A stretch of 4,953 nt of DNA from a virus (IMGVR_UViG_2654587711_000004), one strand, 5' to 3'; shown: positions 1 to 4,953, numbered from the stretch's first letter. Translations and numbers: made by a program. Notes: generated by a model not told the origin, from the letters alone.

Positions 1-131
1 CCAGCCAGGGCGATATCAAAGGCGCATGTGACCAGCTACGTCGCTGGACATATGCTGGCGGTAAGCAATGGAAAGGGCTGATGACCCGTCGTGAGATTGA
101 GCGTGAAGTCTGTTTGTGGGGGCAGCAATGA
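1..131 (+). CDS. R: Phage endolysin, lambda R-type lytic transglycosylase; C-terminal fragment only (gene starts upstream of the window)
   Basis: Open frame from position 3 to TGA at 129-131 translates ...[42 protein letters not shown], which I recognise as the C-terminus of lambda R. Its stop overlaps the Rz start (ATGA at 128-131), the lambda R/Rz arrangement. Confidence 0.8.
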
Positions 132-592
132 GCAGAGTCACCGCGATTATCTCCGCTCTGGTTATCTGCATCATCGTCTGCCTGTCATGGGCTGTTAATC
201 ATTACCGTGATAACGCCATTACCTACAAAGAGCAGCGCGACAAAAACGCAAGAGAACTGAAGCTGGCGAACGCAACCATTACTGACATGCAGCAGAGACA
301 GCGTGATGTTAATGCACTCGATGCTAAATACACGAAGGAGTTAGCTGATGCGAAAGCTGAAAATGAAACTCTGCGCGCTGATGTTGCCGCTGGTCGTCGT
401 CGGTTGCACATCAAAGCAGTCTGTCAGTCAGTGCGTGAAGCCACCACCGCCTCCGGCGTGGATAATGCAACCAGCCCCCGACTGGCAGACACCGCTGAAC
501 GGGATTATTTCACCCTCAGAGAGCGGCTGATGACGATGCAGATGCAACTGGAAGGGGCACAGGAGTATATCCGCACTCAGTGCATTAAGTAG
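128..592 (+). CDS. Rz: Rz i-spanin (inner-membrane spanin subunit, lambda Rz-like)
   Basis: ATG at 128; translation [34 protein letters not shown]... has an N-terminal TM helix followed by a charged coiled-coil-like periplasmic domain, and is near-identical from memory to lambda Rz over about 153 aa. The ORF track starts at GTG 116, but ATG 128 matches the lambda N-terminus. Confidence 0.9.
348..530 (+). CDS. Rz1: Rz1 o-spanin (outer-membrane lipoprotein spanin subunit), wholly embedded in the +1 frame of Rz
   Basis: 60-aa [63 protein letters not shown] with a signal peptide, lipobox (VVVGC, Cys20) and proline-rich mature part; AGGAG at 336-340 lies 7 nt upstream of ATG 348. Matches lambda Rz1 in length and sequence from memory. 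Confidence 0.85.
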
Positions 593-634: not shown

Positions 635-985
635 ATGCCATCACTAATCCCACGTGCCTGCCGTAAGCGTGGATGTGCAGGTACAACCACAGACAGTTCG
701 GGTTACTGCGATAAACATCGCGGTGAAGGCTGGGTGCAGCACCAGCGCGGACTGAGCCGCCACCAGCGTGGCTATGGCTCAAAATGGACGGTGATTCGTG
801 CCCGTATTCTGAAGCGCGATAAAGGTCTGTGTCAGTTGTGTCTGCGTGTCGGTGTGGTGAGCGAGGCGAAAACCGTCGACCACATCATCCCGAAAGCGCA
901 TGGCGGAACAGACGCAGACAGCAACCTGCAGAGTCTGTGCTGGCCCTGCCATAAAGCGAAAACAGCGCGCGAACGAATCCGGTGA
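635..985 (+). CDS. HNH homing-type endonuclease, packaging-associated (HK97 gp74-like)
   Basis: 116-aa ORF with paired-cysteine zinc-finger motifs (C..C near the N-terminus, CQLC, CWPCH) and an HNH core (DHIIPKAHGG ... N ... CWPCH); GAGGT 4 nt upstream of ATG 635. Sits immediately upstream of terS/terL, the usual position for packaging HNH proteins. Confidence 0.88.
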   Translation: MPSLIPRACRKRGCAGTTTDSSGYCDKHRGEGWVQHQRGLSRHQRGYGSKWTVIRARILKRDKGLCQLCLRVGVVSEAKTVDHIIPKAHGGTDADSNLQSLCWPCHKAKTARERIR

Positions 986-1067: not shown

Positions 1068-1106
1068 ATACCCGCGAAAAATGAAATTTAACCAGGAGTG
1101 CCGCAT

Positions 1107-1601
1107 ATGGCTGGAACGGCGGGGCGTTCCGGGCGTCGCCCCAAGCCAACGGCGCGCAAGGCGCTGGCCGGAAACCCCGGCAAGCGAGCCCTGAACAAAG
1201 ATGAACCTGTTTTTACGCCCATCAAAGGTGTTGAGCCACCAGAGTGGTTCGCTGAAGAAGATCTCCCTCTCGCCACGATCATGTGGCAACTGACAACCAA
1301 AGAACTCTGCGGTCAGGGCCTGCTGTGCGTGACTGACCTGGCGGTACTTGAGCGGTGGTGCGTGGCCTATGAGTTCTGGCGACGTGCCGTGAAAAATATT
1401 GCCATACAGGGCAACACCATCACCGGTGCAATGGGCGGCAGGGTCAAAAATCCGGAGCTGACCGCCAAAAAAGAACAGGAGTCCGAGATGAGCAGCACGG
1501 GGGCAATGCTCGGACTCGACCCCAGCAGCCGCCAGCGTCTGATTGGCCTGGCGGGGCAGAAGAAAGCCACTAACCCGTTTCTGAAAATTATCGAATCATG
1601 A
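1107..1601 (+). CDS. terS: Terminase small subunit (P27/HK97-type TerS)
   Basis: ORF ending at TGA 1599-1601; the preferred start is ATG 1107, with AGGAG at 1094-1098 (8-nt spacer), rather than the GTG 1098 of the ORF track. Basic N-terminus ([13 protein letters not shown]) typical of DNA-binding TerS; stop overlaps the terL start (ATGA). Confidence 0.85.
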
Positions 1602-3331
1602 GCCGGAAATCTTACCCCAACGTAAATGCTGCAAATCAGTATGCCCGGGATGTCGTGCGCGGAAAGATTGTTGCCTGCCAGTTTGTGATTCAGGCCTGCC
1701 AGCGCCATCTTGATGACCTGATGGCGGAAAAAAGTAAGTCGTTTCGTTACCGCTTCGACAAGGACCTGGCTGAACGGGCCGCGAAATTTATTCAGCTGTT
1801 GCCGCACACCAAGGGGGAGTGGGCATTCAAACGGATGCCCATCACGCTGGAGCCGTGGCAGCTATTTGTGATCTGCTGTGCGTTTGGCTGGGTCAATAAA
1901 GGCACCCGGTTGCGCCGCTTCCGGGAGGTGTACACCGAAATCCCCCGTAAGAACGGCAAATCAGCAATCTCTGCCGGTGTTGCCCTGTATTGTTTTGCCT
2001 GTGATAACGAGTTTGGCGCGGAAGTGTATTCCGGTGCCACGACAGAGAAACAGGCGTGGGAAGTCTTTCGCCCGGCGCGACTGATGTGTAAACGCACACC
2101 CATGCTGACGGAAGCGTTCGGGATTGAGGTTAACGCCTCAAACATGAACCGTCCGGAGGATGGCGCGCGGTTTGAACCGCTGATCGGCAACCCAGGTGAT
2201 GGTTCATCACCCCACTGTGCCGTGGTTGATGAATATCACGAGCATGCCACCGATGCGCTTTATACCACAATGCTTACCGGGATGGGGGCGCGACGTCAGC
2301 CACTGATGTGGGCCATCACCACCGCCGGGTACAACATTGAGGGGCCGTGCTACGACAAGCGGCGGGAAGTCATCGAGATGCTCAACGGCTCGGTGCCTAA
2401 CGATGAACTGTTCGGGATCATCTATACCGTTGATGAAGGTGACGACTGGACCGGCCCGCAGGTGCTGGAAAAAGCCAATCCAAATATTGGCGTGTCGGTT
2501 TATCGCGAATTTTTGTTAAGTCAGCAGCAGCGTGCGAAAAATAACGCCCGTCTGGCAAACGTCTTTAAAACAAAACACCTCAATATCTGGGTGTCGGCGC
2601 GTTCGGCGTATTTCAACTTGGTGAGCTGGCAGAGCTGCGAGGATAAATCACTGACCCTTGAGCAGTTCGAGGGGCAGCCGTGCATTCTGGCCTTTGACCT
2701 GGCGCGTAAGCTGGATATGAACAGCATGGCGCGACTTTATACCCGCGAGATTGACGGTAAAACGCATTACTACAGTGTGGCCCCGCGTTTCTGGGTACCG
2801 TATGACACGGTGTACAGCGTCGAGAAAAATGAAGATCGACGGACAGCCGAACGCTTTCAGAAATGGGTGGAAATGGGCGTTCTGACCGTTACCGATGGTG
2901 CGGAGGTGGATTATCGCTACATCCTCGAGGAGGCCAAAGCGGCGAACAAAATCAGCCCGGTCAGTGAGTCACCCATCGACCCCTTCGGGGCGACCGGGTT
3001 GTCACATGACCTTGCTGATGAAGACCTGAATCCCGTCACTATCGTCCAGAACTTCACCAATATGTCCGATCCGATGAAAGAGCTGGAAGCAGCGATTGAA
3101 TCGGGACGTTTTCATCATGACGGCAATCCCATCATGACCTGGTGTATCGGCAACGTGGTCGGCAAAAACATGCCGGGTAACGATGATGTGGTGAAACCCG
3201 TCAAAGAGCAGGCGGAAAACAAAATCGATGGTGCAGTTGCGCTGATTATGGCGGTTGGCAGAGCCATGCTGTACGAGAAAGAAGACACGCTGTCTGACCA
3301 CATTGAGTCCTACGGGATCCGCTCGCTTTAA
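1598..3331 (+). CDS. terL: Terminase large subunit (ATPase + nuclease)
   Basis: 577-aa ORF. Walker A-like PRKNGKS and Walker B-like CAVVDEYHE lie in the N-terminal half, with acidic nuclease-type motifs (ILAFDLARK...) in the C-terminal half. Start ATG 1598 is coupled to the terS stop. Confidence 0.95.
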
Positions 3332-3342
3332 CTGAGGTAATT

Positions 3343-3525
3343 ATGATCATGCTGATTCTCGCGCCTCTGGTGGGCGTGCTGGGTGCGCTTTTGCTGGCGT
3401 ATGGTGCCTGGCTGATTTATCCCCCGGCGGGTTTTGTTGTTGCCGGGGCGCTGTGCCTGTTCTGGTCGTGGCTGGTGGCGCGATATCTCGACCGTACACG
3501 GCAGTCTGTCGGCGGAGGTAAATAG
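3343..3525 (+). CDS. Small hypothetical membrane protein (60 aa, two predicted TM helices)
   Basis: ATG 3343 with GAGGT 7 nt upstream. Translation [60 protein letters not shown] has two hydrophobic stretches and a basic tail, with E. coli-like codon usage (CTG/GCG/GTG rich). It fills the terL-portal gap; no family recognised. Confidence 0.5.
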
Positions 3526-4681
3526 TGTTCTTTTCGGGATTATTTCAACGAAAAAGCGATGTGCCGGTGACCACGCCAGCAGAACTGCTGATGCTATCGG
3601 GCTGTCATACGACACCTATACCGGAAAGCGGATCAGTAGCCAGCGGGCCATGCGCCTGACGGCGGTCTATTCTTGCGTCAGGGTGCTGGCAGAGTCTGTT
3701 GGTATGCTGCCCTGCAGTCTCTACAAAATCAGCGGTACCCTGAAAACACGGGCGGTGGATGAACGACTGCATAAGTTGGTTTCGGCAAAACCTAATGGCT
3801 ACATGACACCGCAGGAATTCTGGGAGCTGGTTATTGTCTGCCTGTGTCTACGGGGGAATTTTTACGCCTACAAGGTAAAGGCACTGGGAGAAGTGGTGGA
3901 GCTTCTTCCGATAGATCCGGGCTGTGTGGAACCGAAGCTGAACAGCCAGTGGCAGCCGGTTTATCAGGTGACGTTTCCGGATGGTTCCGTGGATGTGTTG
4001 ACCCAGAATGAAATCTGGCATGTGCGCCCCCTGACGCTGGATGGACTTGTCGGGCTGAATCCCATTGCGTATGCGCGTGAGGCCATTTCACTGGCAGCGG
4101 CAACCGAGGAGCACGGTGCCAGGTTGTTTAGTAATGGTGCGGTGACATCCGGTGTGTTGCGTACGGAACAAAAGCTCACGCCGGATGCTTACGAGCGTCT
4201 GAAGAAAGATTTTGAGGAGTGTCACACGGGGCTTGGCAATGCTCACCGCCCGATGATTCTGGAAATGGGGCTGGACTGGAAGTCGATGGCGCTGAACGCC
4301 GAGGACAGTCAGTTCCTGGAAACCCGCAAGTTTCAGCTGGAAGAAATCTGTCGTCTGTTCCGGGTGCCGTTGCACATGGTGCAGAACACCGATCGCGCCA
4401 CCTTCAACAATATCGAAGAGCTGGGGCTGGGATTTATCAACTATTCACTGGTGCCGTATCTGACCCGCATCGAACAGCGGATCAACACCGGACTGGTACG
4501 AAAAAGTAAGCAGGGCGTTTATTACGCCAAATTTAACGCCGGGGCGTTACTGCGCGGGGATATGAAGTCCCGTTTTGAAGCCTACGCCACCGGGATCAAC
4601 TGGGGAATTTACTCTTCCAATGACTGCCGCGACCTGGAAGATATGAATCCGCGTCCCGGTGGTGTAATGCCGATCAGTTAA
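3525..4681 (+). CDS. Phage portal protein, HK97 family; apparently disrupted (N-terminal codons in a different frame from the body; 3' end abuts an IS4 end)
   Basis: Body frame (open 3434..4681) contains portal-like sequence (...AMRLTAVYSCVRVLAESVGMLPCSLYK...). It has no ATG/GTG start between the upstream gene and ATG 3650, and its only upstream starts (TTG 3434/3437/3440) lie inside the small ORF without an RBS. The other frame has GGAGG (3514-3518) then GTG 3525 encoding (M)FFSGLFQRKSDVPVTTPAEL..., a typical portal N-terminus, which hits TGA at 3657. The last codons (..GG VMPIS*) appear to be read from IS sequence. Confidence 0.7.
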
Positions 4682-4713
4682 GGATCAGTTGACCGATCCA
4701 GTGGCTGTGTAAG

Positions 4714-4748
4714 AATCCGGAAACGCTCACTTGTTTCCGGATTTTTTT
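4714..4748 (+). terminator. Hairpin plus T7 run immediately upstream of the transposase start codon (intrinsic-terminator-like; probably insulates the transposase from read-through)
   Basis: ATCCGGAAAC (4714-4723) and GTTTCCGGAT (4733-4742) form a perfect 10-bp stem with a 9-nt loop, followed by a 7-T run through 4748; the transposase ATG is at 4749 with no evident Shine-Dalgarno. Confidence 0.5.
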
Positions 4749-4953
4749 ATGCACATTGGACAGGCTCTTGATCTGGTATCCCGTTACGATTCTCTGCGTA
4801 ACCCACTGACTTCTCTGGGGGATTACCTCGACCCCGAACTCATCTCTCGTTGCCTTGCCGAATCAGGTACTGTAACGCTACGCAAGCGCCGTCTTCCCCT
4901 CGAAATGATGGTCTGGTGTATTGTTGGCATGGCGCTTGAGCGTAAAGAACCTC
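4749..4953 (+). CDS. insG: IS4 transposase, N-terminal fragment (ORF runs off the window end)
   Basis: ATG 4749; the 68 codons visible give MHIGQALDLVSRYDSLRNPLTSLGDYLDPELISRCLAESGTVTLRKRRLPLEMMVWCIVGMALERKEP with no stop, recognised from memory as IS4 transposase (InsG). Confidence 0.8.
   Translation, partial: MHIGQALDLVSRYDSLRNPLTSLGDYLDPELISRCLAESGTVTLRKRRLPLEMMVWCIVGMALERKEP

What the first reader, a model, noticed from the sequence alone, without database searches (positions are those of the whole stretch)
4640..4760. IS4 inserted into the 3' end of the portal gene, truncating it
The portal ORF ends ...NPRPGGVMPIS* at 4681, with the final codons apparently read from the IS4 left end that I place at about 4665. 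HK97-family portals are usually around 400-430 aa, while this one would be about 385 aa from GTG 3525, which fits loss of a few dozen C-terminal residues. The insertion would separate the portal from the downstream head genes (protease, major capsid), so the prophage is probably defective.
Basis: partly seen in the sequence, partly recalled or inferred. Interest (0 to 1): 0.55.

Follow-up and report, generated by a model that had tools for sequence, protein, structure and literature searches.

The report
IS4 splits a Shigella prophage portal
An IS4 insertion sequence landed in the portal gene of a decaying Shigella sonnei prophage, and later recombination between IS4 copies carried the rest of that gene about 43 kb away; this is an ordinary, well-understood way in which insertion sequences dismantle prophages in Shigella.

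Summary
The IS4 left end starts exactly at window 4665. Intact portal homologs (413 aa) match through 4664. The ORF tail ...PGG-VMPIS* (stop at 4679-4681) is read from IS4 and replaces the last 33 portal residues.

The window is Shigella sonnei (99.98% identical to Ss046, CP000038.1).

1. GTG 3525 is not in frame with that ORF. A 1-nt deletion at 3587/3588 is fixed in all 14 Shigella loci examined and absent from intact relatives. It stops translation after 44 codons, so the portal is hit twice.
2. The insertion is no longer simple. In complete S. sonnei genomes this IS4 copy is followed by raiA or bamE chromosomal DNA, not by the portal remainder.
3. The matching 12-bp target duplication (GTCCCGGTGGTG) and the missing 101 nt of the portal lie beside a different IS4 copy next to bamD, about 43 kb away and inverted. 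Three IS4 copies carry cyclically permuted flanks, which is the signature of IS4 x IS4 inversions.

Downstream of that remote junction, IS600 has deleted most of the protease gene and all of the capsid and connector genes.

The prophage is thoroughly defective. Nothing here is novel in kind.

The parts
3525..4664 (+). 5' part of an HK97-type portal pseudogene (equivalent to codons 1-380 of a 413-codon gene)
   Evidence: Pfam PF04860 match, E = 1.3e-106. 92-99% DNA identity to intact 1242-nt portal genes in E. coli. Same GTG start overlapping the ymfR stop as in L001 and L002.
3587..3588 (+). Site of a 1-nt deletion (one G lost; neighbouring G->T at 3589) that shifts the portal frame. The GTG-3525 frame stops at 3657-3659 after 44 codons.
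   Evidence: Alignment A2 and translations. Present in all 14 Shigella loci and absent from all intact relatives. Adding back one base restores a full 413-aa ORF.
4653..4664 (.). GTCCCGGTGGTG: the left copy of the 12-bp IS4 target-site duplication
   Evidence: The same 12-mer directly follows the right end of the bamD-side IS4 copy and continues into the portal 3' remainder in L141, L148 and L017. Intact portals have it once.
4665..4953 (+). Left 289 bp of IS4. The element runs off the window; the full length is 1426 bp in L010.
   Evidence: Identical to L010 IS4. About 2,500 E. coli records at 99% or more. Boundary fixed by alignment A1 and the flank table.
4665..4682 (.). IS4 left terminal inverted repeat (18 bp, TAATGCCGATCAGTTAAG)
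   Evidence: 16 of 18 positions match the reverse complement of the right end. Fits the published IS4-subgroup end pattern -AATR--------WTW- (PMC2266710).
4664..4681 (+). Chimeric ORF tail V-M-P-I-S-stop, read from IS4 sequence and replacing 33 native residues (DVYLTPMNMTTKPSDGSKAGKQKDNANADETTS)
   Evidence: Translations.
4711..4748 (+). Strong hairpin (15 bp stem) ending in a run of 7 T inside IS4, just upstream of the transposase ATG. Terminator-like; a polar effect on read-through from the phage late operon is inferred.
   Evidence: RNA fold -24.4 kcal/mol, z = -4.66, 0 of 200 shuffles as stable. The simple terminator scan did not flag it.
4749..4953 (+). First 68 codons of the IS4 transposase (InsG-type, 442 aa when complete)
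   Evidence: Pfam Nterm_IS4 E = 1.4e-16 for the window part. Nterm_IS4 plus DDE_Tnp_1 for the full L010 protein. YREK motif YSHRWEIELGYREIK at residue 307.
3343..3525 (+). ymfR-like small gene (60 aa), context
   Evidence: Annotated ymfR at the same position in L001 and L002. No Pfam hit.
1598..3331 (+). Large terminase subunit, 577 aa, apparently intact (context)
   Evidence: Same length as in intact relatives. TerL_ATPase and TerL_nuclease domains. Named 'terminase large subunit [Shigella sonnei]' on more than 1000 contigs.
1098..1601 (+). Small terminase subunit, P27 family (context)
   Evidence: PF05119; annotated as such in L001.
635..985 (+). HNH endonuclease of the packaging module (context)
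   Evidence: Pfam HNH E = 1.6e-16.
116..592 (+). Rz-type lysis protein, with a nested lipoprotein-like ORF (348-530) in another frame (context)
   Evidence: Pfam Phage_lysis E = 3e-52. ORF list.

Best explanation
The window is the late-gene region (Rz, HNH, TerS, TerL, ymfR, portal) of a degraded HK97-head / Mu-like-tail prophage of Shigella sonnei, integrated beside smpB/ssrA.

Shown:
1. IS4 transposed into portal codon 381 and duplicated 12 bp of target (GTCCCGGTGGTG). The window holds the left junction at 4664/4665.
2. The portal also carries a fixed 1-nt deletion at codon about 21.
3. S. sonnei has two further IS4 copies at sites that are also used in E. coli: the bamD/raiA intergenic terminator and the bamE/yfjF terminator.
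4. Homologous recombination between these copies reshuffled their flanks. In Ss046-type genomes the three copies read portal5'|IS4|bamE, yfjF|IS4|raiA and bamD|IS4|portal3'. In 53G-type genomes the first reads portal5'|IS4|raiA.
5. The two halves of the portal gene therefore lie about 43 kb apart on opposite strands.
6. Behind the remote portal 3' end only 120 codons of the prohead protease remain. A 1264-bp IS600 replaces the rest of the protease gene and the capsid, connector and tail-terminator genes.
7. The tail module carries two IS1 insertions.

Inferred:
- The flank pattern arose by two successive inversions between inversely oriented IS4 copies.
- No functional portal is made, because translation from the native start ends after 44 codons.
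- The IS4 hairpin plus T-run would terminate late-operon read-through.
- The prophage cannot form particles.
For: - Boundary at 4665.
- IS4 identity.
- Intact portals are 413 aa in L001, L002 and all ten contexts.
- Source organism: window 99.98% identical to L008, L009, L012 and L014. Proteins named Shigella sonnei on more than 1000 contigs.
- Frameshift.
- Control insertions all show 11-14 bp duplications, whereas this copy has unrelated flanks.
- The right flanks are genuine IS4 sites in E. coli: 337 genomes for raiA and 3 for bamE.
- yfjF|IS4|raiA in Ss046 and others.
- bamD|IS4|GTCCCGGTGGTG followed by the 101-nt portal remainder, a 120-aa protease stub, IS600 and the sheath gene, in complete genomes L141 and L148.
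- The same protease stub, IS600 and sheath arrangement in provirus L062.
- Record coordinates and orientations of the copies.
- In-silico removal of IS4 and one duplication copy, plus one restored base, rebuilds an uninterrupted 413-aa portal.
- General background: IS4-family elements are expanded in Shigella and inversions are frequent there (PMC8072062; PMC2266710). IS x IS recombination is a recognised cause of missing duplications (PMC11708052).
Against: - The window ends 289 bp into IS4, so its own right flank is not seen. Which isomer it comes from (raiA-type or bamE-type) is unknown.
- 2 of 24 S. sonnei contigs read have the native bamD|IS4|raiA arrangement (L043). In such strains the portal halves could still be contiguous around a single IS4.
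- The 43-kb distance is a composite of two genomes.
- The order of events (frameshift, IS4 insertion, inversions, IS600 deletion) is not resolved.
- Loss of function is inferred and was not tested.
- The 33 lost residues lie outside the Pfam domain and are low-complexity, so the IS4 cut alone might have been tolerable.
- The terminator role of the IS4 hairpin is inferred, and the consensus scan did not call it.
Confidence: 0.92

Rival explanations
1. Simple, undisturbed IS4 insertion. The rest of the portal and the protease and capsid genes follow directly after the IS4 right end about 1.4 kb beyond the window.
For: A 12-bp duplication shows that the event began as a simple insertion. L043 (CP180280.1) has a native bamD|IS4|raiA copy, so an un-inverted arrangement may persist or have been restored in a minority of strains.
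Against: In all 8 complete genomes found through TerL and the further genomes found through PheA, the IS4 that follows this portal 5' part is flanked on the right by raiA or bamE DNA. The duplication partner is at the bamD-side copy in L141 and L148. Even there, IS600 has removed the capsid gene.
Confidence: 0.06
2. IS4-associated adjacent deletion. IS4 inserted, or recombined with a directly oriented copy, and everything distal to the portal cut was lost from the genome.
For: No phage genes follow IS4 at this locus. Missing duplications are often due to adjacent deletions (PMC11708052).
Against: The portal 3' remainder with the matching 12-mer, the protease stub and the whole tail module are still in the genome, next to bamD and smpB. 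The flanks of the three IS4 copies form a closed cyclic permutation, as expected for reciprocal exchange without loss.
Confidence: 0.01
3. The portal is not truncated. ...PGGVMPIS is a natural C-terminus, or the IS4 end lies downstream of the stop codon.
For: The Pfam portal domain is complete in the ORF.
Against: The IS4 boundary is at 4665, 14 nt before the stop codon. Every intact homolog continues for 33 more residues. The HK97 portal structure alignment runs across the cut, PGGD.
Confidence: 0.005
4. The frame change at 3587/3588 is a sequencing error or a programmed frameshift, so a near-full-length portal is still made from GTG 3525.
For: It is a single-base difference. The downstream frame stays open to 4681.
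Against: The sequence is identical in 14 independent Shigella assemblies, including 8 closed genomes. All intact relatives encode the portal in one frame. The deletion is not in a long homopolymer. No slippery-site or stimulatory-structure evidence was sought or found.
Confidence: 0.02

Closest known systems
IS4 of Escherichia coli (1426 bp, InsG transposase; type element of the IS4 subgroup)
   Same: The window part is 99-100% identical to annotated IS4 copies. The full copy in sister genomes is 1426 bp with 16/18 terminal repeats, Nterm_IS4 plus DDE_Tnp_1 domains, a YREK motif and a 12-bp target duplication.
   Different: Nothing in the element itself differs. This copy's two flanks come from different insertion events (chimeric copy). 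In Ss046-type strains it is itself interrupted by IS2, and in 53G by IS600, both outside the window.
Intact HK97-head / Mu-like-tail prophages of E. coli with a P27-family terminase (for example in strain ECCHD184, locus L001); portal related to HK97 portal structures 8cez and 8fql
   Same: Same gene order: lysis, HNH, TerS, TerL (577 aa), ymfR, portal, protease, capsid, then sheath and tube. 92.5% DNA identity over 4 kb and 99% in the last 365 bp of the portal 5' part. Portal homologous to the HK97 portal, E = 1e-51.
   Different: The S. sonnei copy has a frameshifted portal split by IS4, its halves inverted and about 43 kb apart, head genes deleted by IS600, and IS1 and IS2 insertions elsewhere.
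IS-mediated inversions and swapped target duplications described for Shigella and E. coli (PMC8072062; PMC11708052)
   Same: Recombination between inversely oriented IS copies gives inversions and leaves IS copies without matching duplications. IS4-family elements are enriched in Shigella.
   Different: This is a specific three-copy case in which all six flanks were recovered and form a closed permutation. I did not find this locus described in the papers searched.

Membership tests
IS4 (IS4 subgroup of the IS4 family) | Element length 1400-1650 bp (IS4 itself 1426 bp) | tested here: met
   The full copy continuing the window sequence in L010 spans 13068-14493, which is 1426 bp. The window holds only the first 289 bp. 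Criterion from PMC2266710 Table 1.
IS4 (IS4 subgroup of the IS4 family) | Terminal inverted repeats with ends of the form -AATR--------WTW- | tested here: met
   TAATGCCGATCAGTTAAG versus TAATGCCAGTCAGTTAAG, 16 of 18. AATG at positions 2-5 and TTA at 14-16 fit the pattern.
IS4 (IS4 subgroup of the IS4 family) | DDE transposase with an IS4 N-terminal domain and a YREK motif | tested here: met
   PF13006 plus PF01609. Y-2-R-3-E-6-K motif at residue 307. The window encodes residues 1-68 only.
IS4 (IS4 subgroup of the IS4 family) | Target-site duplication of 10-13 bp | tested here: met
   12-bp GTCCCGGTGGTG at window 4653-4664 and again after the right end of the bamD-side copy in L141 and L148. 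The two copies now flank different IS4 copies.
IS4 (IS4 subgroup of the IS4 family) | Near-identity to curated IS4 (ISfinder reference) | tested here: inconclusive
   ISfinder is not available here. As a proxy, the window part is at least 99% identical to copies annotated 'IS4-like element IS4 family transposase' by PGAP in about 2,500 E. coli records.
HK97-type phage portal protein (Pfam PF04860) | Sequence match to the family profile and to solved HK97-family portals | tested here: met
   E = 1.3e-106 with full profile coverage, 2-321 of 321. The intact relative matches HK97 portal 8cez/8fql at E = 1e-51.
HK97-type phage portal protein (Pfam PF04860) | Position between the large terminase and the prohead protease / major capsid genes | tested here: not met
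   The upstream side is conserved: TerL, ymfR, portal. The downstream neighbours are IS4 and chromosomal genes. The protease stub lies about 43 kb away and the capsid gene is deleted.
HK97-type phage portal protein (Pfam PF04860) | Uninterrupted ORF of full length (413 aa in close relatives) | tested here: not met
   Frameshift at codon about 21 and loss of 33 C-terminal residues. It is a pseudogene derived from this family, not a functional member.

The most novel reading that the evidence does not exclude
The three IS4 copies form a recombination system that makes the roughly 20-kb raiA...bamE chromosomal segment (pheA, tyrA, aroF, rplS-rpsP, ffh, grpE, nadK, recN) invertible. It is polymorphic between S. 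sonnei strains (53G-type versus Ss046-type). This flipping, or the retention of an intact HNH-TerS-TerL packaging module beside it, might have a selectable phenotypic consequence rather than being neutral decay.
Probability: 0.07. Interest if true: 0.35.

Novelty: already known. Interest (0 to 1): 0.14.

Why it matters
It matters little beyond annotation.

- It documents at base-pair resolution how one S. sonnei prophage was dismantled: a frameshift, an IS4 insertion, IS4 x IS4 inversions, an IS600 deletion, and IS1 and IS2 hits.
- It gives a clean worked example of why an IS copy can lack a matching target duplication. The partner sits at another copy.
- Database entries called 'phage portal protein [Shigella sonnei]' (343 aa, 414 aa and many 'partial' forms) are products of a doubly disrupted pseudogene.
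- Short-read S. sonnei assemblies break at this junction.
- One public draft scaffold (CXFI01000117.1) is chimeric here.

Tried and rejected
1. Exact 30-nt left-junction searches. There was no match in 5,426 complete E. coli genomes (0 records covering 80% or more), in GTDB species representatives or in JGI metagenome contigs. Matches came only from IMG/VR S. sonnei proviruses and the protein-indexed NCBI assemblies.
2. The reciprocal-junction pattern was absent from genome contigs and metagenome contigs. The single IMG/VR hit (L017 = L027) turned out to be a scaffold with one N. It mixes the S. sonnei pieces with a second, intact siphovirus-type prophage. Contig A departs from the window exactly at the junction, with 3 mismatches in 65 bp. 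Contig B departs from true S. sonnei sequence where IS600 begins. I therefore did not use its downstream genes as the S. sonnei state.
3. A capsid homology search and look-ups of P0001 and P0135 returned only intact E. coli prophages. They served only as 413-aa portal controls.
5. The first Pfam call failed because I gave an out-of-frame transposase coordinate.
6. The consensus terminator scan missed the IS4 hairpin, so I folded it instead.
7. I considered and rejected deletion models. A deletion between directly oriented copies would remove essential genes (bamD, or the raiA-ffh-grpE block) and is contradicted.

Full report
**Observation.** Window 4640-4760 holds the end of a long ORF (3434..4681...DMNPRPGGVMPIS*, TAA at 4679-4681) followed by a hairpin and an ATG at 4749. 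I aligned the window with two intact portal loci from E. coli and four independent IS4 copies (in atoC, lacZ, mlc and near ygcG). The portals match through G4664. All IS4 copies share sequence from T4665 (TAATGCCGATCAGTTAAGG...) onward. Megablast gives the same break. Window 4665-4953 is identical to the first 289 bp of a complete 1426-bp IS4 and matches annotated IS4 in about 2,500 E. coli records.

**The portal.** Close relatives encode a 413-aa portal (1242 nt) whose 3' end overlaps the prohead protease gene. All ten further contexts show 413 aa. IS4 cut the gene after residue 380, removing 33 residues (DVYLTPMNMTTKPSDGSKAGKQKDNANADETTS). The Pfam portal domain (intact residues 47-373) is untouched, and the alignment to the HK97 portal structure (8cez/8fql) runs across the cut.

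Compared with intact genes the window lacks one G at 3587/3588 and has a G-to-T change next to it. The native frame stops at 3657-3659 after 44 codons. The same sequence is in all 14 Shigella loci I retrieved, including 8 closed genomes, and in none of the intact relatives. It is a fixed mutation, not an error.

**Source.** An exact look-up of the window's TerL found it in thousands of assemblies. The window is 99.98% identical to several complete genomes, including CP000038.1. The sources name the TerL and the truncated portal ORF 'Shigella sonnei', and a neighbouring protein of CP000038.1 is named 'Shigella sonnei Ss046'. No complete E. coli genome, GTDB representative or JGI metagenome contig has the junction.

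**What lies beyond the window.** In those genomes the IS4 is complete (1426 bp, 16/18 terminal repeats). In Ss046-type strains it carries an IS2 insertion with a 5-bp duplication. Its right flank is not portal sequence. It is CAGCCCTTGAGCTG..., upstream of raiA-pheL-pheA, in some genomes, and GCTCATTGAGC..., the 3' end of bamE, in others. Control IS4 insertions all have matching 11-14 bp duplications. Both right flanks are genuine IS4 sites in E. coli with their own duplications and native left partners: bamD|IS4|raiA in 337 genomes and yfjF|IS4|bamE in 3 genomes.

**Finding the partner.** Using S. sonnei alleles of neighbouring genes as anchors, I recovered the other junctions.
- yfjF...GCTCATTGAGC|IS4|CAGCCCTTGAGCTG...raiA, in Ss046 and others.
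- bamD...CAGCCCTTGAGCTG|IS4|GTCCCGGTGGTG followed by ATGTCTATCTC... in complete genomes L141 and L148. This is the window's 12-bp target sequence followed by the missing 101 nt of the portal.

Three IS4 copies thus carry a closed cyclic permutation of three target duplications. This proves an original 12-bp-duplication insertion into the portal, followed by reciprocal IS4 x IS4 exchanges.

Record coordinates show the following:
- Copy 1 (portal 5' side) and copy 2 are inversely oriented, 20.5-21.5 kb apart.
- Copies 2 and 3 are co-oriented, 18.8 kb apart.
- The portal halves are therefore about 43 kb apart on opposite strands. This figure is a composite of two genomes.

The raiA-type and bamE-type arrangements are inversion isomers of the raiA...bamE segment. 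Removing IS4 and one duplication copy in silico, and restoring one base, rebuilds an open 413-aa portal.

**Further decay.** After the remote portal 3' end only 120 codons of the protease remain. A 1264-bp IS600 then runs to 19 bp before the sheath gene. It replaces the rest of the protease gene and the capsid, connector and tail-terminator genes. The Mu-like tail module next to smpB carries two IS1 copies, and the early region carries IS2.

**Mechanism and status of steps.**
- Shown: the insertion site, the duplication, the frameshift, the flank permutation, the copy orientations and the IS600 deletion.
- Inferred: two successive inversions as the route; no functional portal, because translation ends after 44 codons; termination of late-operon read-through at the IS4 hairpin plus T7 (4711-4748; -24.4 kcal/mol, z = -4.7); and inability to make particles.

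**Comparison and novelty.** The element meets every testable IS4 criterion from PMC2266710 Table 1: size, ends, YREK and a 10-13 bp duplication. The portal is a pseudogene derived from the HK97-type family. IS4-family expansion and frequent IS-mediated inversions in Shigella are documented (PMC8072062). IS x IS recombination as a cause of missing duplications is also documented (PMC11708052). The finding is correct but ordinary. Its value is in annotation and as a tidy worked example.

Noticed in passing
window 3587-3659: A 1-nt deletion (plus an adjacent G->T) near portal codon 21 truncates translation from the native GTG 3525 after 44 codons. It is fixed in every Shigella copy examined.
   Followed up: yes
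L014 14190-15520 (Ss046); L042 about 7600-8880 (HE616528.1): The IS4 copy that continues from the window is itself interrupted in some strains: by IS2 (5-bp duplication GTGTC) in Ss046-type genomes, and by an IS600-like element (100-aa and 272-aa ORFs) in HE616528.1.
   Followed up: partly
L141 5019-6599; L148 5021-6600; L062 1-1643: IS600 (1264 bp) joins protease codon 120 to a point 19 bp upstream of the tail-sheath ATG. It deletes about 3.7 kb of head and connector genes, including the major capsid gene.
   Followed up: yes
flanks of IS4 copies in L003-L006, L015, L016, L142, window 4653-4664: IS4 target duplications look loosely pseudo-palindromic (C-rich, then 4-5 nt, then G-rich): CCCCTGTCGGTG, CAACCCGTGGTC, GCCCGCGTTGGTC, CAGCCCGGAGGCTG, CAGCCCTTGAGCTG, GCTCATTGAGC, GCCCCGAAGGGC, GTCCCGGTGGTG. 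Several lie in terminator hairpins (after bamD, bamE, ygcG). No statistics were done.
   Followed up: no
L142-L146 (for example CP000266.1), around 6689-8114 and 13459-14884: Other Shigella genomes (about 4.5-4.7 Mb) also have IS4 at the bamD/raiA site with swapped flanks. Together with a copy downstream of clpB (duplication GCCCCGAAGGGC), this indicates an inversion of the bamD-rluD-yfiH-clpB block. In L146 the second copy has yet another left flank.
   Followed up: partly
L017 = L027 (GCA_001259355.1, CXFI01000117.1), 2433-2860 and 4197-4650: This public S. sonnei draft scaffold is chimeric. It reads through the IS4 site into a paralogous portal 3' end (3 mismatches in 65 bp). It has one N. 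It starts its IS4 part with the hairpin loop inverted. It continues past the IS600 breakpoint into an intact siphovirus-type head and tail module.
   Followed up: yes
window 3434-4681 and 3650-4681: Public annotations list this pseudogene as 'phage portal protein [Shigella sonnei]': 343 aa from an internal ATG at 3650, 414 aa in the Ss046 record from an upstream out-of-frame start, and many 'partial' forms where contigs end inside IS4.
   Followed up: partly
window 4689-4716: Promoter-like site TTGACC-16 nt-AAGAAT (with TG) inside the IS4 left end, upstream of the hairpin and the transposase ATG. One site was found against 0.3 expected in shuffles.
   Followed up: no
window 116-592 and 348-530: Rz-type lysis gene with a nested 60-aa ORF in another frame that starts with a lipoprotein-like signal ([20 protein letters not shown]...), as expected for an Rz/Rz1 pair. 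The stretch between Rz and HNH is about 800 bp shorter than in the closest E. coli relatives.
   Followed up: partly
L052 14341-20591 (CP032523.1) and L057 15583-16407 (CP029794.1): The tail-fibre end of the same prophage has different neighbours in other genomes. In CP032523.1 it is an integrase and early genes of another prophage instead of smpB. In a 4.54-Mb Shigella genome it is smpB-ratA-yfjF-bamE without a full IS4.
   Followed up: no
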